Shown: piece by piece, positions 54,070-62,294 of the stretch | Layout of the letters: the number at the start of each line of letters is the position of its first letter | Numbering within the stretch: position 1 is the stretch's first letter | NCBI GenBank assembly: GCA_020354435.1 | Contig: CP070646.1 | Coordinates: 3,030,275-3,092,568, forward strand | Reading direction: 5' to 3' | Length of the DNA: 62,294 nucleotides | From: Gammaproteobacteria bacterium | GTDB lineage: Bacteria > Pseudomonadota > Gammaproteobacteria > GCA-001735895 | Notes under the pieces: generated by a model | Database searches by the model: none | What the model was told of the DNA's origin: nothing | The model's input: the letters and a program-made list of their open reading frames with translations, nothing else | Translations under genes and position numbers: made by a program

Positions 54070-55176
54070 ATGACAAATCGAGGACATTCAGAAGGCATAA
54101 CCATGAGCGGTGGCGGCCTCTACTCGCTTGCAACCCTGGGCGCAAAACACGTCATCGACGCTGCCACGCCAATGGTGCTGGATGCCATTGCCAGTATGCC
54201 ACAGGAATCGATCGCCAACGGATTCACGCTGTCCGACATGGGTACCGCCGACGCCGGCACTTCACTGACCATGGTCGGCAGTGTGATCGACGCGATTCGC
54301 CAGCGCGCGCCGCAAGCACCGATCTCGATCGTCTACTCCGACCAGCCGCGTAACGACTTCAACGCGTTAATCGCCAACGTTTACGGACTCGGGCCGTTCG
54401 AGACTTACCTCGACAAGCACGAAAATCTTTTTCCGCTGGTTTCGGGGACAACCTTCTACAAGCAGATATTACCCGCGGGCACTCTCGACGTCGGCTTCTC
54501 GGCAACCGCGATGCACTGGATGAGTCGCAAGGTTTGCAACATCTCGAACCATGTGCAGGCGGTCGGCGCAGAGGGTGAGGAACTGGATAGATTTCGTGCA
54601 CAGGCGCGGCAGGACTGGCGCCAGATCCTGCTGCATCGGGCGGTCGAACTGAAACCCGGCGGCAAGCTGGTACTGATCAACTTCGGCTGCGATGAACAGG
54701 GGCGCTACCTGGGCAACACCGGTGGCGTCAACATGTTCGACACCTTTAACCGGATCTGGCAATCCTTTCTCGAGCAGGGTCGAATCGAGCGACATGAATA
54801 CGAGAACATGACCCTGCCGCAGTACTACAATACCGTCGAGGAGTTCAGTGCCCCGCTCACCGATACCTCAGATGCCGTATACCAGGCTGGTCTGCGCCTG
54901 GAGCATATCGACACGCGCATCGTCAAATGCCCGTTTGCAGAATCCTTTGCAGAACACGGCGACGCGGAGAAATTTGCCGAGGAATACATCCCGACGATAC
55001 GCACCTGGAACGAGAGCATCTATTTCAACGGACTGTCGGAGCAACGCCCGCTCGAGGAACGCCGGGAAATCATCGAAGACTACTACGGAACCTACCGCGA
55101 CCTGGTGCGCGACAATCCCGAAGGCCACGGCATGGACTACGTCCACGCCTACATGGTCATCTCCAAACAGGCGTAA
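54070..55176 (+). CDS. SAM-dependent carboxyl methyltransferase (SABATH / Methyltransf_7 family)
   Basis: SDMGTADAGTS, SDQPRNDFN, GTTFYKQILP and SATAMHWMS correspond to the SABATH motifs DLGCSSG, NDLP.NDFN, GSFY.RLFP and S...HWLS. Confidence 0.85.
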   Translation: MTNRGHSEGITMSGGGLYSLATLGAKHVIDAATPMVLDAIASMPQESIANGFTLSDMGTADAGTSLTMVGSVIDAIRQRAPQAPISIVYSDQPRNDFNALIANVYGLGPFETYLDKHENLFPLVSGTTFYKQILPAGTLDVGFSATAMHWMSRKVCNISNHVQAVGAEGEELDRFRAQARQDWRQILLHRAVELKPGGKLVLINFGCDEQGRYLGNTGGVNMFDTFNRIWQSFLEQGRIERHEYENMTLPQYYNTVEEFSAPLTDTSDAVYQAGLRLEHIDTRIVKCPFAESFAEHGDAEKFAEEYIPTIRTWNESIYFNGLSEQRPLEERREIIEDYYGTYRDLVRDNPEGHGMDYVHAYMVISKQA

Positions 55177-55401: not shown

Positions 55402-56439
55402 TCAGGTTTCGACCGGGTAGCCGGCCTTTTCCCAGTCGGGCATGCCGCTGTGGCTGATGCAGGTGATGTGATTGAGGCCCTGGAAGTTGAGATTGGTGGT
55501 AGCCGTCTGCGCACGCCGGCCCGAACGGCAATAAAGGTAAATCTGATCGTATTGACGCAGCTCATCGACATGCCCGCTCTCGGTGCCCATCGGAATATTG
55601 CGACTGCCCGGCACATGACCTTTGGCAAATTCTTCAGGCGACCGGTTATCCATGATCAACGTGTTTGCCGGCAGATCCTGCCAGACTTCGTGCAGGTCAT
55701 TCATATCGAAATCGCGCAACAGGTAGCGGTTGGCGTCAAAATCGATACCAACGCTCATATTGGCCGGCACCGCCTCGTTGATGCGTTTCGGCATATCCAG
55801 GTTCAGATTATTCATCAAATCGATGAATTGCTGGCGCGATCGATGGCCGGCGAGGCGGGGATTCCAGGCTTTTTCCTCGCCGATCGTCGACGAGGTCCGG
55901 CCGTTGTAATCGTGTGCCGGGTAGACAAGGGTGTCGTCGCTAAGCACGAACAGCTTTTGCGTGATGCTGTCGTATAATTGCCCGGGGTCGCCAAACTGGA
56001 AATCGGTGCGCCCGCAACCCCGAATCAACAGGGTATCACCGCTGAACAGCATACCGTCGCAAAAATAGCAGGTACAGCCATTGGTATGGCCCGGCGTCGA
56101 GATCGCGCTAATCTGGTAATGCCCGAGAGGGATGCTGTCACCATCCTTTAGCGATATATCGATCGCCTCGATGCCGGAAGTCTCACCGTATACCAGTTTG
56201 GCACCGGTGCTTTCACGGATCTTGCCGGCCGCGGTGATATGGTCGGCATGGGCGTGGGTTTCGATGGCATAGAGTAATTCCACGCCAAGTTCGTTGATGA
56301 TCTGCATATCGCGATCGTAGGTTTCGAGTACCGAATCGATGATCGCACCCTCGCCGGTGTCGCTATCGATCAACAGATAGGTATAGGTGCAGCTTTCGCG
56401 ATCGAACAGTTGTTTTACCCTCAGATGTGGCGTGGTCAT
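55402..56439 (-). CDS. Persulfide dioxygenase (ETHE1-like MBL) - rhodanese fusion
   Basis: SCTYTYL, ETHAHADH, TPGHT, GCGRTDF and YPAHDY motifs; C-terminal rhodanese YCRSGRR; GGAG RBS before ATG 56439. Confidence 0.9.
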   Translation of the reverse strand: MTTPHLRVKQLFDRESCTYTYLLIDSDTGEGAIIDSVLETYDRDMQIINELGVELLYAIETHAHADHITAAGKIRESTGAKLVYGETSGIEAIDISLKDGDSIPLGHYQISAISTPGHTNGCTCYFCDGMLFSGDTLLIRGCGRTDFQFGDPGQLYDSITQKLFVLSDDTLVYPAHDYNGRTSSTIGEEKAWNPRLAGHRSRQQFIDLMNNLNLDMPKRINEAVPANMSVGIDFDANRYLLRDFDMNDLHEVWQDLPANTLIMDNRSPEEFAKGHVPGSRNIPMGTESGHVDELRQYDQIYLYCRSGRRAQTATTNLNFQGLNHITCISHSGMPDWEKAGYPVET

Positions 56440-56541
56440 CGAGACAGGCTCCAAAAATGACAAATTCAAGTGTAATTTTTACGTTTGACGAAGGCAATCG
56501 TCGGTGGCAATTTGGCGATCTTCGGATATTATCTTTTCGCA

Positions 56542-57156
56542 ATGGATTACGAAACTCTCTTAAACCAGCTCAACCTGCAATCGGAACTCGTTGCGATGGT
56601 AATCGTCGTACTGGCGCTGGCATTGATCGTCTTTGTCAATCGCAAGCGAATTCAAATGCGCTGGGGCGAATGGCGCACCCAGCGATGCCTGAAACGAATC
56701 GGCAGCGAGCAGATTCGCGACCTCGTCTGCGCCGACGGCCTGGATGGTTTCTACCGCATCGACAGGCTAGCACTGACACCTCATGCAATACTGCTGATCA
56801 GTTACAAACCCTATGGCGGCAATATTTATTGCGCCGAACGCATTTCGGAATGGACCCAGGTAATCGGGAAAAAGAGTTACAAGTTCGAAAACCCCCTGTT
56901 CGAGCTGGATAACCAGCTGGCCGCCCTCAGGCTGTTAATCGGCAGTGCGCCGCTCGAGGGATACCTGTTTTTTAACCGCAGCGCATTGTTTCCCAAGGGG
57001 CACCCCGATTCGGTGCTGAATCCGGATAACATTCCGCAACAATTCATCAGCAAAAATCGCGAACCGCCCAAACCTGAAATCCAGGCTGCCTGGGATATTC
57101 TCAAATCACAGAAAAGTAACGCCTCGACCGCGGGGCAGATCGGCGTTAAAACTTGA
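56542..57156 (+). CDS. Membrane-anchored NERD (nuclease-related domain) protein
   Basis: N-terminal TM; ID.L...IS-YK.Y.G.I....WTQ...K.F.NP pattern; start re-assigned to ATG 56542. Confidence 0.75.
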   Translation: MDYETLLNQLNLQSELVAMVIVVLALALIVFVNRKRIQMRWGEWRTQRCLKRIGSEQIRDLVCADGLDGFYRIDRLALTPHAILLISYKPYGGNIYCAERISEWTQVIGKKSYKFENPLFELDNQLAALRLLIGSAPLEGYLFFNRSALFPKGHPDSVLNPDNIPQQFISKNREPPKPEIQAAWDILKSQKSNASTAGQIGVKT

Positions 57157-57271: not shown

Positions 57272-58363
57272 ATGAAACGTCGTGATGTACTCAAAGGTGG
57301 CGTCGCCGCCGCACTCGCAACCGGAGCAGGCGCAGTATCGGCACCCGCTATCGCGCAGGGCCGTCAAGAAATTACCATGGTATCAACCTGGCCGCGAGAC
57401 TTTCCGGGCCTCGGCACCGGCGCCCAGCGCTTTGCCGAGCGCCTCACCGCCATGACCGATGGTCGTATCAAGGTTAATTATTTTGCCGCCGGCGAACGCG
57501 TCAAGGCGTTCGACTCATTCGACGAGGTCGCCTCCGGTAACGCACAAATGTACCACGCCGCCGATTACTACTGGAAAGGCAAGCATCCCGGCTGGGCCTA
57601 TTTCACGGGGGTTCCTTTCGGCATGACCTACACCGAGGTCAACGCCTGGACTCAGTTCGGCGGTGGACAGGAGCTTTGGGATGAACTGGCTGCTGGTTAC
57701 GGCCTCAAATGTATCCCCTGCGGTAACACCGGCGTCCAGATGGGTGGCTGGTTCCGCAAGGAAATGCGTTCGGCCGCCGATTTCAAAGGCCTGAAAATGC
57801 GCATCCCGGGTCTCGGTGGTGACGTAATCGCCAAGCTCGGTGCCTCCTCGGTAACCCTGCCTGGCGGACAAATCTACGAAAACCTGGTATCCGGCGCTAT
57901 CGATGCAACCGAGTGGGTCGGTCCGTGGAACGACAGCTTCCTGAAATTCTACGAAGCAGCCAAGTTCTACTACTACCCGGGTATGCACGAGCCGGGCTCG
58001 ATGCTGGCCCTGGGCATGAACAAGAAGTGGTGGGATAGCCAGAGCAAGTCCGACCAGGCCATTATCATGGCAGCCGCCGAAACCGAAAACTCGATCATGA
58101 TGTCGGAGTACAACGCCAAGAACGGTGCAGCGCTGCAAAGCCTGCTGTCGGATCAGGGCGTCAAGCTGCGCCAGTTCAGTGACGACACCTACGATGCGTT
58201 CGGTGACGCCGCGGCAGAAGTGTTCGAGGAAGTTCGCCAGCACAGCCCGCTGGCCAAGAAAATCCACGACAGCTTCAAGTCATCGCGTGACGAAGTTGGC
58301 GCCTGGGTCAAGATATCCGACCAGGCTTACGTGGCGCAACGCAACCGCGTACTGGGGCTTTAA
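57272..58363 (+). CDS. dctP: TRAP transporter solute-binding protein (TakP-like, Tat signal)
   Basis: KRRDVL Tat motif, STWPRDFPG, GNTGVQMGGWF, KMRIPGLGG and EWVGP motifs. Confidence 0.92.
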   Translation: MKRRDVLKGGVAAALATGAGAVSAPAIAQGRQEITMVSTWPRDFPGLGTGAQRFAERLTAMTDGRIKVNYFAAGERVKAFDSFDEVASGNAQMYHAADYYWKGKHPGWAYFTGVPFGMTYTEVNAWTQFGGGQELWDELAAGYGLKCIPCGNTGVQMGGWFRKEMRSAADFKGLKMRIPGLGGDVIAKLGASSVTLPGGQIYENLVSGAIDATEWVGPWNDSFLKFYEAAKFYYYPGMHEPGSMLALGMNKKWWDSQSKSDQAIIMAAAETENSIMMSEYNAKNGAALQSLLSDQGVKLRQFSDDTYDAFGDAAAEVFEEVRQHSPLAKKIHDSFKSSRDEVGAWVKISDQAYVAQRNRVLGL

Positions 58364-58435: not shown

Positions 58436-59482
58436 ATGATGAAGAATAATCTGCCACTGCTAACGCGTGCATTTTCCTACGCGATGGTGAGCGCGGTATT
58501 TCTTTATTTACTGAACAATTATCTGGTCTACTGGCAGGGCATGCCCGGAACCTACGGACTGTCGTTGCATTACGGCTGGTTCGGACTCGAAGTCGATGAA
58601 CTGGCCGAGGGCAAGGTCGGCCAGGCCTGGTTCCAGCTAATATTTTATCTGCTGGTCATTTTCGCCAGCATCGGTTACGTAATCAAAACCCCGATGCGAA
58701 AGCTCGAGGACGACAGCGTCCGCTTCGCCCGGGTATCCGCCTATATCGTCCGCCTGTCTTTCTGGTCGGTGCTGCTGATCGGTATCGTCGATATGCTGAT
58801 TTCGTTACTGCGGATCGAAAACCTGCTCGAACACATAATCGGCGAATGGCTTACACAACAGCTGGGGCGTTCTATATTTCGCGGCACCTGGGTGCACTAC
58901 CCGTTAGTCGGCATCTCCATGATCATCGCCGCCAGGTGGCGCGATATCAGTTTTACCTGGCTTGCGCTGATGTGCGTGCTGGCCGAATTCCTGATCGTGG
59001 TTTCGCGTTTCGTATTTTCCTACGAACAGGCCTACATGGGTGACCTGGTGCGTTTCTGGTACGCGGCGTTATTCCTGTTTGCCAGCGCGCATACGCTGGT
59101 CGAGGAAGGCCACGTGCGCGTCGACGTACTCTATACCGGGTTCAGGCGACGCAAGAAGGCCCTGTACGATTCAATCGGCTGCCTGATCCTGGGCATACCT
59201 ATTTGCTGGGTCATCCTGATGCAGGGCATGGGCGGACGCGGCAACAGCATCAACAGCCCGCTGCTCTCCTTCGAGGTATCGCAAAGCGGCTACGGTATGT
59301 ACGTCAAGTACATCATGGCGGCTTTTCTGATCGTGTTCGCGGTGACGATGATAGTCCAGTTCGTCAGCTACCTGCTGTACAACGTCGGTCAGCTGATCGA
59401 CCACGGCGAGCACGAGGAGCGCTTGACTTATCACCAGCTGATCTCGGGTGATAAAACCGTGGCCCCGGGGGGCGGCCACTAG
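58436..59482 (+). CDS. dctQ: TRAP small permease DctQ with N-terminal membrane extension
   Basis: C-terminal half has the HVRVD DctQ motif; 348 aa with about 4 extra hydrophobic segments in front. Confidence 0.85.
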   Translation: MMKNNLPLLTRAFSYAMVSAVFLYLLNNYLVYWQGMPGTYGLSLHYGWFGLEVDELAEGKVGQAWFQLIFYLLVIFASIGYVIKTPMRKLEDDSVRFARVSAYIVRLSFWSVLLIGIVDMLISLLRIENLLEHIIGEWLTQQLGRSIFRGTWVHYPLVGISMIIAARWRDISFTWLALMCVLAEFLIVVSRFVFSYEQAYMGDLVRFWYAALFLFASAHTLVEEGHVRVDVLYTGFRRRKKALYDSIGCLILGIPICWVILMQGMGGRGNSINSPLLSFEVSQSGYGMYVKYIMAAFLIVFAVTMIVQFVSYLLYNVGQLIDHGEHEERLTYHQLISGDKTVAPGGGH

Positions 59483-59483
59483 C

Positions 59484-62147
59484 ATGGAATTATATTTTCT
59501 CGTCCTGCTGATCGCGCTGATGGTGTTCGCCCTGACGGCGGGCTTCCCGGTCGCGTTCGCGCTGCCGGGATCGGCGGTACTGGCGATCGCGATCGCCGCC
59601 CTCTGCGGCTGGCTGTTCGAAGGTAATCCGGACGCCTATTTCGCGCTCGGCGGCCCCAACCAGTGGCTTAGCGCCGGGGTCACTAACTACCGAAGTCTCT
59701 ACTGGGTGGCGGAACGCGACACCCTGATCGCGATACCGCTGTTCATTTTCATGGGCATCATGCTGCAGCGCTCGCGCATCGCCGAAGACCTGCTGGTGGC
59801 GATGGCGCAGTTGTTCGGACCGATTCCCGGAGGCCTCGGCATTTCAGTGGTTTTCGTCGGCGCCTTACTCGCCGCGACCACCGGCATTGTCGGCGCCACG
59901 GTCATCGCGATGGGCCTGATCTCGCTGCCGGCGATGCTGCGCAATAATTATTCGAAGTCGCTCGCCTGCGGCACGATTTGCGCGTCGGGCACGCTGGGGC
60001 AAATCATTCCGCCGTCGATCGTGCTGATTATCCTCGCCGACCAGTTATCCAACGCAGCCGACCAGGCCGCGACCACGCGTAAGGCCGAATACAAAGAGGC
60101 TACCGGCGAGTTCTCCATGCCGGGCGATTTCGACGTGGTTACCGCGAGCGCCGGCGACATGTTCATGGGCGCCTTCATACCAGGCCTTATCCTGGTCGGC
60201 ATCTATATGCTCTACATCCTGATTTCTGCCCTGATCAAGCCGGCTAATGCGCCGCCGGTACCGTTCGAGGGCGAATACGACCGCAAGTTCGTGCTGCGGG
60301 TACTGCTCGCGCTGGTGCCGCCGTTAACGCTGATATTCATCGTGCTCGGCTCGATCATCCTCGGTGTCGCCACGGTAAACCAGGCCGGCGCTATCGGTGC
60401 CATCGGCGCGATGATCATGGGCAGTTACCGCCTGATGGAAGGCAAAAAACGCGCCTACTACCCCGCCATTCTGACGATTGGTTCGGTCGTCGCCATTGTC
60501 ATATTGCTGAGTCTTTTTGACCTGAATATCAAAAACATCAAAAGCGGCTACGACGCGTTCGGCATCGGCCTCGCCTGCATCGCTACAGCGGTGCTGGTTT
60601 ATGCGATCTCGTGGGCCGCGTGGCGCGCCTACAAGATCGACAATACGCTGCACAGCGTTATGATGGATACCGCCAAAACCACGTCGATGGTATTCATCAT
60701 CCTGCTCGGCGCGGCGATGCTGACGTCGGCGTTTCGCGGTTTCGGCGGAGAAGAACTGGTCAAGGAGCACCTGACCGCCCTGCCCGGCGGTTTCTGGACC
60801 CAGTTCATCGTCGTCATGGCGGTTATCTTTTTTCTCGGATTTTTTCTCGACTTTCTCGAGATAGCCGTGGTCGTGGTGCCGATCGTGGCGCCGATTCTGC
60901 TGGCCGACCCGAGCGCCAACGTCAGCGCGGTCTGGTTCGGCGTCATGGTTGGCCTCAACATCCAGACATCGTTTCTAACACCACCGTTCGGCTTTTCTTT
61001 ATTCTATTTACGCGGGGTTGCGCCCAAGGATGTGCGAACGCTACAGATCTACAAGGGAGCAGCCGCGTTTATCGTTCTGCAGCTCCTCGGACTGGCCATT
61101 GCCGGCGCATTTCCGAGCCTGGTCAATTACCTGCCGAACAAAACCCATTTGGTCTCCGAAACCGCGCCGCCGCCGAGCAACCCGAAGCTGCAGGAATGCC
61201 TGGAGGAATACCAGTTCGTCGTTTACGATCGGGACAAGGAGGTAATCCAGGCGGCAGTCGAACGTATTCAGACGGCAAACATCGCCTACTTGCCCGACGA
61301 ATACCAGGAACGCCTGAACCAAAGCTACAAACAGGCTGGCGCAACCTTTGCACTAATCGAAGACGTTCGCTCCGCGGAAATAAAGCTCGACAACTACTCG
61401 CAGGATTATCGCCCGCTGCACATCAAGGTGCGCCAGATACAAAAAGACGTTCGCAGGCTGGAAAAGGATATCGAGGAACTCGACGAAGAACGTCAGCGGG
61501 TAAGATTCGAGGAACCTGTCGATCAAAGCAGGCTCGATCGGATCCAGGCAAGAATCAGCGGCCTCGAAACCGAGCGGGATGCGCTGGCGGCGACCGTCCC
61601 GGAAAACTGGAAGGACGCGCGTGCCGAGTTCGAGCAGCTGGCCAAAGCCGAGACTACCGCGCGACGTAAATATCGCCAGAACGTCGACGAAAGCTATGAC
61701 ATGATCAGGACCATGCGCAAGATGATTGCCGAATCCGATGCACTCGCTGCGCTGCAGGAGCGTTACGACCCGTTAATCGAGCTGATCCGCAAGAAAACTG
61801 CAAAGGAAAGTACCGAGGCTATCAAGGCACTCGAGTCAGAACTCGACGCGTTAACCGAGACACACCGTATCAAGTCGAAGCTGTCGCGCGCCAGGCGCGC
61901 CCTGCGTGGCGATAATCCCGACCAGCAAAAGGCGATCGAGGAGGTCATGCAAAGTGCGGAAATCCTGCAAAACGAGATCGTCTGGCACCAGCGTGCCGCC
62001 GACGATCTGCGCGCCGATCTCGACGAGTACCACGAGGCGGTCAAGCTGACCATCGGCATGCGCATGCAGGAGCGCCTGACCGGCGATCAGGCCGAGGCCA
62101 TCGCCGAATGCAAGTCAGTGCATAAAGATCTGACCCTGTTCTTCTAG
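59484..62147 (+). CDS. dctM: TRAP large permease DctM with ~336-aa soluble C-terminal extension
   Basis: LIAIPLFIFMG, ASGTLGQIIPPS and LTPPFGFSLFYL motifs; the DctM core ends at about aa 551 of 887. Confidence 0.92.
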   Translation: MELYFLVLLIALMVFALTAGFPVAFALPGSAVLAIAIAALCGWLFEGNPDAYFALGGPNQWLSAGVTNYRSLYWVAERDTLIAIPLFIFMGIMLQRSRIAEDLLVAMAQLFGPIPGGLGISVVFVGALLAATTGIVGATVIAMGLISLPAMLRNNYSKSLACGTICASGTLGQIIPPSIVLIILADQLSNAADQAATTRKAEYKEATGEFSMPGDFDVVTASAGDMFMGAFIPGLILVGIYMLYILISALIKPANAPPVPFEGEYDRKFVLRVLLALVPPLTLIFIVLGSIILGVATVNQAGAIGAIGAMIMGSYRLMEGKKRAYYPAILTIGSVVAIVILLSLFDLNIKNIKSGYDAFGIGLACIATAVLVYAISWAAWRAYKIDNTLHSVMMDTAKTTSMVFIILLGAAMLTSAFRGFGGEELVKEHLTALPGGFWTQFIVVMAVIFFLGFFLDFLEIAVVVVPIVAPILLADPSANVSAVWFGVMVGLNIQTSFLTPPFGFSLFYLRGVAPKDVRTLQIYKGAAAFIVLQLLGLAIAGAFPSLVNYLPNKTHLVSETAPPPSNPKLQECLEEYQFVVYDRDKEVIQAAVERIQTANIAYLPDEYQERLNQSYKQAGATFALIEDVRSAEIKLDNYSQDYRPLHIKVRQIQKDVRRLEKDIEELDEERQRVRFEEPVDQSRLDRIQARISGLETERDALAATVPENWKDARAEFEQLAKAETTARRKYRQNVDESYDMIRTMRKMIAESDALAALQERYDPLIELIRKKTAKESTEAIKALESELDALTETHRIKSKLSRARRALRGDNPDQQKAIEEVMQSAEILQNEIVWHQRAADDLRADLDEYHEAVKLTIGMRMQERLTGDQAEAIAECKSVHKDLTLFF

Positions 62148-62153
62148 CGCCTG

Positions 62154-62294
62154 ATGTCACAGGTAGACTTAATCTATCGCATATTTGCGATTATCTTTCC
62201 TGTCTTCAGCATCGTCGCGGTAGGTTACCTGTATGCGCGTCACCGCCACGAAACCGACATGGCGTCCGGTAATCGCATCAATATGGATATCTTC
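62154..62294 (+). CDS. AEC (auxin efflux carrier) family transporter, N-terminal part
   Basis: IFAIIFPVFSIVAVGYLYAR...NRINMDIF; truncated by window edge. Confidence 0.75.
   Translation, partial: MSQVDLIYRIFAIIFPVFSIVAVGYLYARHRHETDMASGNRINMDIF

What the first reader, a model, noticed from the sequence alone, without database searches (positions are those of the whole stretch)
61137..62147. TRAP DctM fused to a ~336-aa helical domain clasped by two cysteines
After the normal DctM end (...FPSLVNYLP) the ORF continues with a hydrophilic, heptad-rich sequence (e.g. VRQIQKDVRRLEKDIEELDEERQR). Its only two Cys lie near the start (LQECLEE) and the end (IAECKSVH), consistent with a disulfide closing a long helical hairpin or bundle in the periplasm. 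The core also has an extra 2-TM insert and an enlarged loop. With the double-size DctQ and a Tat-exported TakP-like SBP, this looks like a distinct augmented TRAP class. The stalk could tether or recapture the SBP, reach the outer membrane, or scaffold partners. I know of no described function for such a domain.
Basis: partly seen in the sequence, partly recalled or inferred. Interest (0 to 1): 0.7.

Follow-up and report, generated by a model that had tools for sequence, protein, structure and literature searches.

The report
TRAP permease with periplasmic helical domain
A nutrient-uptake (TRAP) membrane transporter carries a conserved, undescribed 336-residue helical domain on its outer (periplasmic) side, found in over 500 bacterial species and most likely helping the transporter handle its soluble binding protein.

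Summary
Window 59484..62147 (+) is one 887-aa ORF: a DctM permease core (aa 1-551) plus a 336-aa tail (aa 552-887) with no Pfam, NCBIfam, PDB-sequence or Foldseek match.

The fusion is not an artefact. Hundreds of homologues are 886-887 aa long, and at least 528 species genomes encode the tail (Gamma- and Alphaproteobacteria, SAR324).

The tail folds confidently on its own (AlphaFold2 pLDDT 92, pTM 0.82) as an all-helical bundle. Covariation shows it is built on a ~70-residue antiparallel hairpin.

C572 and C876 are invariant, and 64/64 genome-derived tails have exactly two Cys. Residues flanking the two Cys co-vary, so the tail's N- and C-terminal ends meet.

Published TRAP topology and charge bias place the tail in the periplasm; this was not measured.

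The tail always comes with a ~350-aa DctQ (about four extra predicted TM helices) and a 2-TM insert in DctM. Ordinary TakP-type relatives have Q ~180 aa and M ~460 aa. The "enlarged loop" is not specific to this class.

The function is inferred. The most likely role is a binding-protein-contacting accessory module, analogous to the TAXI-TRAP "claw" or MalF-P2. I rate it a new variant of a known kind.

The parts
57272..58363 (+). dctP: TakP-like solute-binding protein (363 aa) with a twin-arginine signal
   Evidence: Pfam DctP E 3e-51 and a TAT_signal hit. Best PDB matches are 5cm6 (E 1e-75) and TakP 2hzk (E 2e-75). It sits directly upstream in 58 of 70 related loci.
58436..59482 (+). Enlarged dctQ (348 aa). 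The canonical DctQ domain is aa 185-311. The N-terminal ~178 aa (58436-58969) are an extension with about four hydrophobic segments and no family match.
   Evidence: Pfam DctQ covers only aa 185-311, and the N-terminal half has no Pfam hit. hhalign of the N half against the C half gives probability 0.7%. A ~350-aa Q accompanies the tail in 60 of 70 loci. Ordinary and insert-only relatives match only the C-terminal half of this Q; ordinary Q is 177-183 aa, insert-only Q is variable (182 to ~270 aa).
59484..61136 (+). DctM permease core (aa 1-551) of the 887-aa ORF
   Evidence: Pfam DctM E 2e-62. The AF2 model matches the PpSiaM structure 7qha_B with TM-score 0.79 normalised to the target. The core is 50-57% identical to ordinary ~460-aa permeases over aa 7-313 and 388-551.
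60423..60644 (+). Two-TM insert (about aa 314-387) between the two halves of DctM
   Evidence: It is absent from ~460-aa relatives, which align only to aa 7-313 and 388-551, and present in a 522-562-aa intermediate class. AF2 predicts helices 326-344 and 355-384. The K/R-rich flanks suggest it enters from and returns to the cytoplasmic side.
61053..61121 (+). Last TM helix of DctM (aa 524-546), from which the tail emerges
   Evidence: AF2 predicts helix 519-542. K/R are enriched before it (mean 2.6 in 15 residues, plus K524) compared with after it (2.0 in 25). It aligns with the C-terminal helix of SiaM/SiaQM, whose C-terminus the authors place on the periplasmic side, inferred from function rather than observed directly.
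61137..61196 (+). Conserved Pro-rich linker N-K-T-H-L-V-S-E-T-A-P-P-P-S-N-P-K-L-Q-E (aa 552-571)
   Evidence: A561, P562-P564, N566, P567 and Q570 are invariant and L569 is >=90% conserved in 64 genome-derived tails. The motif [SA][ED][TN]APPPxNP alone retrieved 528 confirmed relatives.
61197..61199 (+). Codon of Cys572 (tail residue 21)
   Evidence: TGC in the sequence. It is invariant in A1, A3 and A4 and 99% conserved in 166 tails.
61296..61730 (+). Long antiparallel helical hairpin (aa 605-749, tail residues 54-198), with its turn at tail 124-129. The distal tip (tail ~100-155) is charged, variable and carries indels.
   Evidence: AF2 tail model predicts helices 54-68/70-123 and 130-151/158-198 with pLDDT >90. 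Covariation bands with i+j of about 255 cover 53-123 against 134-203. The tip is variable and gapped in alignment A2.
61731..62048 (+). C-terminal helical sub-bundle (aa 750-855, tail 199-304)
   Evidence: AF2 predicts helices 200-207, 210-219, 222-237, 243-256, 263-290 and 292-302. Covariation bands have i+j of about 479-488, and 329-344 against helix 1.
62049..62144 (+). Highly conserved C-terminal motif TIGxRxQxRL...QAxxIAxCxSxH[RK]D[IV]SLxF-COOH (aa 856-887), which includes Cys876
   Evidence: G858, R860, Q862, C876, H880, D882 and F887 are invariant and L885 is >=90% conserved in the 64 tails of alignment A4. The same ending occurs in nearly all of the 150 representative hits.
62109..62111 (+). 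Codon of Cys876 (tail residue 325)
   Evidence: TGC in the sequence. It is invariant. Flanking residues co-vary with the region around Cys572: 26-326 (Z 5.8), 8-327 (Z 7.0), 6-333 (Z 6.0).
62154..62294 (+). Start of a downstream AEC-family (Mem_trans) transporter gene, cut off by the window end and a run of N in the assembly
   Evidence: The translation MSQVDLIYRIFAIIFP... matches the 296-aa AEC gene that follows dctM in 11 related loci, which hits Pfam PF03547. The run of N is seen in L002.

Best explanation
The 336-aa extension is a real, independently folding, all-helical domain. It is exported to the periplasm at the C-terminus of a TakM-type TRAP permease.

Shown here:
- The fusion, its length and its sequence motifs are conserved in at least 528 species.
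- It folds confidently as a bundle organised around a ~70-residue antiparallel hairpin.
- The N-terminal helix and the C-terminal segments pack together.
- Exactly two Cys, both invariant, sit in these two segments.
- No known fold or family matches.
- It always co-occurs with a ~350-aa DctQ and a 2-TM insert in DctM, both absent from ordinary TakP-type systems.

Inferred:
(a) The domain is periplasmic. The DctM C-terminus is periplasmic in characterised TRAP permeases, and the insert adds an even number of helices.
(b) C572 and C876 form a structural disulfide that staples the chain ends.
(c) The conserved base of the domain lies just above the periplasmic face of the transporter. That base comprises the linker, YRPLH, P706/W709, Y730-R731-D735-Y738 and the C-terminal CxSxHRDxSLxF motif. 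The variable hairpin tip points away from it.
(d) The domain hangs from a helix of the moving (elevator) bundle, next to where the binding protein docks. Together with the six extra TM helices, it most likely forms an accessory platform. That platform would contact the TakP-like, probably dimeric, binding protein, to retain or orient it or to couple its closing to elevator movement. This would work like the periplasmic 'claw' of TAXI-TRAP VcGluQM or the MalF-P2 loop of the maltose ABC importer.
For: - Continuous ORF, with the DctM core ending at aa ~551.
- 278 homologues in one search, nearly all 886-887 aa; 489 representative hits, nearly all of them C-terminal pieces of the same fusion; 528 confirmed loci among species genomes.
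- In a 121-genome sample of the class, 6 genomes carry the tail.
- AF2 of the tail alone gives pLDDT 92 and pTM 0.82. Mean-field covariation (226 tails, Neff 160) independently recovers the hairpin (i+j ~255), helix 1 against the spine (i+j ~108), helix 1 against residues 292-319 (i+j 329-344), and N-to-C contacts 8-327, 6-333 and 26-326.
- Exactly two Cys in 64/64 and 164/166 tails.
- Topology: the DctM N-terminus is described as periplasmic (PMC5812351), and the FnSiaQM authors place its C-terminus on the periplasmic side by inference, without direct observation (PMC11801797). Natural M-P fusions exist (PMC9352664). K/R bias around the last TM helix and the insert fits this.
- TM10/11 belong to the elevator bundle (PMC9352664).
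- The binding protein is TakP-like (E 2e-75 to 2hzk). TakP is a helix-swapped dimer (PMC1839085), and such dimers can dock with the second monomer pointing away from the membrane (PMC9352664).
- A predicted SBP-contacting periplasmic extension is a precedent in TAXI-TRAP (PMC11574862).
- The P, large Q and M-tail genes are linked in 58-60 of 70 loci, while the other neighbours vary.
- Ordinary TakP-type loci have Q 177-183 aa, M ~460 aa and no tail.
Against: - No direct evidence for location, disulfide or partner.
- In the full-length AF2 model the tail is not confidently docked on the membrane part (pTM 0.54; the last 8 residues have pLDDT <50).
- Ordinary TakP-like binding proteins (41-51% identical) work with plain Q/M, so a dimeric binding protein does not by itself require the tail.
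- Binding proteins of tail-bearing systems show many subgroup-specific residues but no insertion or obvious docking element.
- C572, C876, H880 and D882 could instead form a metal site.
- One covariation band (tail 121-141 against 157-177) does not fit the one-chain hairpin.
Confidence: 0.45

Rival explanations
1. The tail is a periplasmic sensor or gate. It senses a signal and restrains or releases the elevator helix it hangs from, so transport is regulated from the outside without any role in docking the binding protein. The signal could be a small ligand at the conserved Y/H/R/D/W cluster, a metal at Cys572/Cys876/His880/Asp882, or redox state through the Cys pair.
For: Invariant polar and aromatic residues lie on single helix faces (Y642-H646-R650 and Y730/R731-D735-Y738), and a C...CxxxHxD constellation is present. 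The tail is attached to an elevator-bundle helix. The C-terminal motif is predicted with lower confidence, as expected for a mobile or partner-bound element. An unexplained covariation band could reflect a second conformation.
Against: No match to any known periplasmic sensor fold or family (4HB_MCP, HBM, TarH and others are in Pfam; Foldseek). Exactly two Cys, both invariant, in an exported domain is the usual signature of a structural disulfide. No regulator gene is consistently linked.
Confidence: 0.2
2. The tail is an oligomerisation or envelope scaffold. The rods of two transporters would pair, dimerising an otherwise monomeric elevator. Alternatively the rod would anchor the transporter to peptidoglycan or another envelope component.
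For: The covariation band i+j ~298 (tail 121-141 against 157-177) cannot be satisfied within the one-chain hairpin and could be an intermolecular antiparallel contact. The long charged hairpin resembles coiled-coil oligomerisation elements (weak Spectrin/SMC/Lpp-like hits). Six extra TM helices could form a membrane interface.
Against: That band is only slightly above the noise bands (mean Z 1.83 against 1.4-1.6). The hairpin tip is the least conserved part and varies in length, which is unusual for a specific interface. AF2 predicts a confident monomeric bundle. The link point at mid-hairpin leaves only ~45-60 A of projection, too short to reach the outer membrane.
Confidence: 0.15
3. The tail is cytoplasmic: a coiled-coil regulatory or partner-binding domain, with the Cys/His/Asp residues forming a zinc clasp.
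For: Cys2-His-Asp zinc sites are typical of cytoplasmic proteins. The tail is rich in K/R as well as D/E.
Against: The core aligns end to end with SiaM, whose C-terminus its authors place on the periplasmic side (inferred, not observed). The insert is two helices, an even number. Natural M-P fusions place a periplasmic protein at this same terminus. K/R bias is on the other side of the last TM helix. The tail's net charge is -13.
Confidence: 0.05
4. The fusion is an assembly or annotation artefact: read-through of two genes or a lost stop codon.
For: None beyond the unusual length.
Against: The same 886-887-aa frame recurs in hundreds of independent assemblies. These include complete chromosomes and distant lineages whose tails are only 26-40% identical.
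Confidence: 0.01

Closest known systems
TakPQM-type (COG4663-4665) DctP-type TRAP transporters, e.g. TakP of Rhodobacter sphaeroides
   Same: The binding protein is TakP-like (E 2e-75 to 2hzk), with a Tat signal and the long C-terminal helix region. The DctM core is 50-57% identical to ordinary ~460-aa permeases of this subfamily. The C-terminal half of DctQ is homologous.
   Different: Ordinary members sampled here have Q 177-183 aa and M ~460 aa. This class adds ~170 aa (about four predicted TM helices) to Q, a 2-TM insert to M, and the 336-aa periplasmic tail. Its binding proteins form a separate, very conserved subgroup. The membrane subunits of R. sphaeroides TakP itself were not examined here.
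C-terminal extension with periplasmic 'claw' domain (DUF3394) of the TAXI-TRAP permease VcGluQM (Davies et al. 2024, PMC11574862)
   Same: It is also an extra periplasmic domain appended to the C-terminal, transport-domain end of a TRAP permease, and it is predicted to contact the binding protein. It also occurs only in one subclade.
   Different: The claw is mainly beta-sheet, sits in a loop between two extra TM helices, and belongs to TAXI systems. The tail here is all-helical, terminal, has no Pfam match, and belongs to a DctP-type system. That paper states that such an extension had not been reported for DctP-type TRAPs.
Natural M-P fusions (Acidaminococcus intestini G4Q5D7; Peter et al. 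2022, PMC9352664)
   Same: A periplasmic protein domain is fused to the C-terminus of the M domain, which shows this terminus is periplasmic and next to the docking site.
   Different: In those proteins the fused domain is the binding protein itself. Here the tail has no DctP similarity, and a separate dctP gene is present.
MalF P2 loop of the maltose ABC importer MalFGK2
   Same: It is a large periplasmic domain of a membrane subunit that contacts the binding protein. Davies et al. cite it as the analogue of the claw.
   Different: It belongs to a different transporter superfamily, has a different fold, and is internal to the chain. The comparison rests on my own knowledge plus that paper and was not tested here.

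Membership tests
TRAP large permease DctM (PF06808 / TIGR00786) | Sequence match to the DctM profile over the whole core | tested here: met
   Pfam E 2e-62 (211.7 bits against a cut-off of 23.8). TIGR00786 scores 260.6 bits, just under its 268.45 cut-off because of the inserts.
TRAP large permease DctM (PF06808 / TIGR00786) | Elevator-type fold as in solved SiaM/SiaQM structures | tested here: met
   Foldseek of the AF2 model: 7qha_B E 1.4e-9, TM-score 0.79 normalised to the target; then 9pym, 8thi, 7qe5 and 8y4w.
TRAP large permease DctM (PF06808 / TIGR00786) | Operon with DctQ and a DctP-family binding protein | tested here: met
   dctP-dctQ-dctM order in the window and in 58-60 of 70 related loci.
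TakP-type (2-oxo-acid) TRAP subfamily | Binding protein closely similar to TakP | tested here: met
   E 2e-75 to 2hzk (TakP) and 1e-75 to 5cm6.
TakP-type (2-oxo-acid) TRAP subfamily | Binds pyruvate or 2-oxo acids | not testable with these tools
   About 50 subgroup-specific residues differ from ordinary TakP-like proteins, e.g. YYPGMHEPG against YYPGWHEPG. Ligand screening is needed.
TakP-type (2-oxo-acid) TRAP subfamily | Ordinary-size membrane subunits (Q ~180 aa, M ~460 aa) | tested here: not met
   Q is 348 aa and M is 887 aa here. Ordinary loci have Q 177-183 aa and M 461-462 aa.
TAXI-TRAP C-terminal 'claw' extension (DUF3394) | Match to DUF3394; beta-rich domain between extra C-terminal TM helices | tested here: not met
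   No DUF3394 hit in Pfam scans of the protein or of 64 tails. The tail is all-helical with no TM segment after aa 546.
M-P fusion TRAP permeases | C-terminal domain is a DctP/TAXI binding-protein fold | tested here: not met
   No PF03480 or other SBP hit in the tail. Foldseek gives no SBP match.
Known periplasmic helical sensor domains (4HB_MCP, HBM, TarH and similar) | Profile or structural match | tested here: not met
   No such Pfam family at E <=0.01 in 64 members. Foldseek against PDB: best E 0.066, TM-score <=0.3.
Generic coiled-coil families (SMC arm, spectrin repeat, Lpp) | Score above the family threshold | tested here: not met
   Spectrin 17.8 bits against 29.9; SMC_prok_B 22.9 against 567; Lpp E 0.13-0.26. 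These are composition-level similarities only.
Tandem-duplicated DctQ | The N-terminal half is homologous to the C-terminal DctQ half | tested here: not met
   hhalign of 56-sequence half-alignments gives probability 0.7%. The N-terminal half has no Pfam hit.

The most novel reading that the evidence does not exclude
The tail, the four extra DctQ helices and the two extra DctM helices together form an added module. This module would keep the TakP-like binding-protein dimer permanently engaged on the permease, or would mechanically couple its closure to the elevator stroke. That would make this a 'captive-receptor' DctP-type TRAP transporter, a mode of operation not described for this family.
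Probability: 0.3. Interest if true: 0.75.

Novelty: new variant of a known kind. Interest (0 to 1): 0.6.

Why it matters
TRAP transporters are a major route for organic-acid uptake in marine and soil bacteria. Their mechanism is currently modelled on plain Q/M permeases with a freely diffusing binding protein.

This is a widespread class: at least 528 species, and about 5% of sampled genomes of the window's class. It has about six extra TM helices and a 336-residue periplasmic domain attached to the moving elevator bundle.

That gives a natural system for asking how the binding protein is recruited, held and coupled to the elevator. A 2024 paper states that no periplasmic extension had been reported for DctP-type TRAPs, and databases annotate these proteins only as 'TRAP transporter large permease'. 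The domain also deserves its own family entry.

Tried and rejected
- **Known family or fold for the tail.** Pfam, NCBIfam, PDB sequence (single and profile) and Foldseek against PDB returned only sub-threshold coiled-coil noise.
- **Free-standing or differently fused tail homologues.** Nearly all of the 150 representative hits are C-terminal fragments of the same fusion. P0270 has a signal-peptide-like start, but it sits 40 nt from the edge of a 1.1-kb contig and cannot be interpreted.
- **DctQ duplication.** Rejected.
- **Second copy of the tail in the own genome.** None. Another 883-aa DctM-containing frame has no tail homology.
- **Substrate clues from gene neighbourhood.** Apart from P-Q-M, the neighbours differ between lineages and are often housekeeping genes.
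- **Docking signature in the binding protein.** There are about 50 subgroup-specific residues but no indel except a ~4-residue C-terminal extension. I could not map them without coordinates.
- **First covariation run.** It was dominated by gap artefacts from partial sequences, so I redid it with full-length tails only.
- **Alignment A2.** It was too diverse for the search for related loci, so I replaced it with A3.
- **Direct Cys-Cys distance.** Model coordinates are not exposed to scripts.
- **Outer-membrane reach.** Judged unlikely from the hairpin length and the mid-hairpin attachment point.
Full report
**1. The observation**

ORF listing shows one uninterrupted frame from 59448 (GTG) or 59484 (ATG) to 62147 on the + strand. 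Homologues begin MELYFL, so the start is ATG 59484, two bases after the dctQ stop, giving 887 aa.

Pfam finds only DctM, ending near aa 550. The remaining 336 aa (window 61137-62144) give only sub-threshold coiled-coil hits (Spectrin 17.8 bits against a cut-off of 29.9).

The protein's cysteines are at 41, 162, 166, 365, 572 and 876, so the tail has exactly two, in LQECLEE and IAECKSVH. Upstream lie a Tat-signal DctP-family binding protein (57272..58363) and a 348-aa DctQ (58436..59482). The description is correct.

**2. Not an artefact, and widespread**

- A search with the tail region returned 278 proteins, almost all 886-887 aa, 54-81% identical in the tail.
- An exhaustive HMMER search of 1.84 billion representatives gave 489 hits. 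Nearly all of the 150 inspected end in ...CxSxHRDISLNF, and where the N-terminus is present it continues from ...LVNYLPNRxxLxSETAPPPxNPxLQxC. They are pieces of the same fusion, and no clearly independent version was seen.
- A more distant member (P0204) led to alphaproteobacterial members, including Breoghania corrubedonensis and a Pacificispira species.
They span Gammaproteobacteria, Rhodospirillales and relatives, SAR324 and others.
- In an even sample of 121 genomes of the window's class, 6 carry the tail.
- The window's own genome has a single copy.

**3. What distinguishes this class**

The class sample splits relatives of the core into three groups:

| Group | M length | Match to this core |
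|---|---|---|
| Tail-bearing | 886-901-aa frames | >=70% identical |
| Intermediate | 522-562 aa | whole core aa 1-551, 44-51% identical, no tail |
| Ordinary (common) | ~460 aa | aa 7-313 and 388-551 only, 50-57% identical |

So aa ~314-387 is an insert, which AF2 predicts as two helices (326-344 and 355-384). The loop at 186-222 is shared with ordinary permeases and is not a special feature.

In 24 fetched ordinary or intermediate loci, only the C-terminal half of this Q finds a match. Ordinary Q is 177-183 aa; intermediate Q is variable, from 182 to about 270 aa. Neither the Q N-terminal extension nor the tail is present. The adjacent binding proteins are TakP-like, 41-51% identical to this one.

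In tail-bearing loci, P (~363 aa), large Q (~350 aa) and M-tail (887 aa) occur together in 58-60 of 70 loci, while the other neighbours vary. The Q extension has about four hydrophobic segments. It has no Pfam match and no detectable similarity to the DctQ half (hhalign probability 0.7%).

**4. Anatomy of the tail**

Conservation. Across 64 genome-derived tails (34-63% identical to the window's tail), the following positions are invariant or at least 90% conserved:
- the linker A561-P-P-P-x-N-P-x-L-Q-x-C572-x-E
- L603-P604
- Y642-x-P644-x-H646-xxx-R650
- P706 and W709
- Y730-R731-xxx-D735-xx-Y738
- W834
- G858-x-R860-x-Q862
- C876-xxx-H880-x-D882-xx-L885-x-F887

Structure prediction. AF2 of the full protein gives a core that superposes on SiaM (TM-score 0.79 normalised to 7qha_B). 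The tail is confident in that model but not confidently placed relative to the core (pTM 0.54). AF2 of the tail alone gives pLDDT 92 and pTM 0.82. It predicts helices at tail residues 16-45, 54-123, 130-151, 158-198 and seven shorter ones up to 326.

Covariation. It recovers:
- an antiparallel hairpin of about 70 residues (53-123 against 130-203, i+j ~255);
- helix 1 antiparallel to the first half of the spine (i+j ~108);
- helix 1 against residues 292-319 (i+j 329-344);
- top-ranked contacts 8-327 (Z 7.0), 6-333 (Z 6.0) and 26-326 (Z 5.8).

So the chain ends, which carry Cys21 and Cys325 in tail numbering (C572 and C876), are neighbours. The linker joins the bundle near the middle of the hairpin. 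Most invariant residues lie around this junction, and the variable hairpin tip points away.

One band (121-141 against 157-177) does not fit a single-chain hairpin and remains unexplained.

**5. Cysteines**

All 64 genome-derived tails and 164 of 166 tails from the protein searches have exactly two Cys, at the same two positions. Together with the covariation result, this fits a structural disulfide stapling the ends. A Cys2-His-Asp metal site is the alternative. Neither was measured.

**6. Which side of the membrane**

- The core aligns to the very C-terminus of SiaM/SiaQM.
- The literature describes the DctM N-terminus as periplasmic (PMC5812351). The FnSiaQM authors place its C-terminus on the periplasmic side, noting this was not directly observed (PMC11801797).
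- Natural M-P fusions carry a periplasmic binding protein on this terminus (PMC9352664).
- The insert adds two helices, and its flanks are K/R-rich. The segment before the last TM helix is richer in K/R than the segment after it.
- The tail's net charge is -13.

I put a periplasmic location at roughly 85-90%. It is inferred, not shown.

**7. Comparison with known folds and families**

Foldseek of the tail model against PDB gives nothing (best E 0.066, TM-score <=0.3, rmsd >20 A). Profile searches of Pfam (64 members) and PDB give only scattered coiled-coil noise.

The literature search found no description of this domain. Davies et al. 2024 describe a beta-rich periplasmic 'claw' (DUF3394) in a C-terminal extension of the TAXI permease VcGluQM, predicted to contact the binding protein. 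[quoted passage not shown]

**8. Mechanism**

TM10 and TM11 of the M domain belong to the elevator bundle, so the tail hangs from the moving part, beside the docking site of the binding protein. The binding protein here is TakP-like. TakP is a helix-swapped dimer, and such dimers can dock with the second monomer pointing away from the membrane.

The best-supported reading is an accessory periplasmic module. With the six extra TM helices, it would contact the binding protein to retain or orient it, or to couple its closure to the elevator.

Weaknesses of this reading:
- Ordinary TakP-like proteins work with plain Q/M.
- No docking-specific insertion exists in this subgroup's binding proteins.
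- AF2 did not dock the tail onto the core.

Rivals are a sensor or gate (ligand, metal or redox), an oligomerisation or envelope scaffold, and a cytoplasmic location.

**9.

An earlier follow-up on another genome (e1-1377839) reached the same general conclusion: periplasmic helical domain, at least 540 species, TakP-type. I treated it as a lead. The conservation, distribution, fold, topology argument and class comparison reported here were all redone independently.

**10. Verdict**

- This is a real, conserved, undescribed periplasmic helical domain.
- It marks an augmented subclass of TakP-type TRAP transporters.
- The anatomy is well supported; the function is inferred.
- I rate it a new variant of a known kind, with interest 0.6.

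Noticed in passing
window 54070-55176 (+): This is a SABATH-type SAM-dependent carboxyl methyltransferase (PF03492, E 5e-29), a family best known from plants. Homologues lie next to the tail-bearing TRAP operon in 8 related loci from different lineages, including SAR324 (L074) and Acidiferrobacterales (L077). This may hint that the imported carboxylate is methylated.
   Followed up: partly
window 62154-62294 (+), continuing beyond the window: An AEC-family (PF03547) transporter gene starts 7 nt after the dctM stop and is cut by the window end and a run of N in the assembly. In 11 related loci a 296-aa AEC gene follows dctM, often followed by an MFS gene. An uptake system sits directly beside putative exporters.
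   Followed up: partly
window 56485-57156 (+): A NERD-domain protein (PF08378) with an N-terminal hydrophobic segment lies directly upstream of dctP. It is conserved at that position in 12 loci of the close clade.
   Followed up: no
window 55402-56469 (-): A metallo-beta-lactamase plus rhodanese fusion (persulfide-dioxygenase-like) is conserved next to the NERD gene in 11 related loci.
   Followed up: no
tail residues 121-141 and 157-177 (window about 61497-61559 and 61605-61667): A covariation band with i+j of about 298 is incompatible with the one-chain hairpin register (i+j ~255). It could be noise, an intermolecular antiparallel contact, or a second conformation.
   Followed up: partly
own genome G000:C1:2322849-2324447 (+): A second DctM-containing open frame of 883 aa shows no similarity to this tail. 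It may be a fused TAXI-type QM permease with its own extension.
   Followed up: no
L083 (ENA metagenome contig, 1142 bp), gene 41-760: P0270 (239 aa) joins a signal-peptide-like start (MLARVLTLLGLLAGPGLAQT...) to the C-terminal ~200 residues of the tail. It might be a free-standing secreted half-domain, but it lies 40 nt from a contig edge and may be a miscall or a chimera.
   Followed up: partly
related loci L003-L082 (dctP genes); window 57272-58363: Binding proteins of tail-bearing systems are far more conserved across Gamma-, Alphaproteobacteria and SAR324 than the tail itself. They carry about 50 subgroup-specific residues (for example YYPGMHEPG instead of YYPGWHEPG) and a short C-terminal QRNRVLG extension. 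This suggests one specific substrate that differs from that of ordinary TakP-like proteins.
   Followed up: partly
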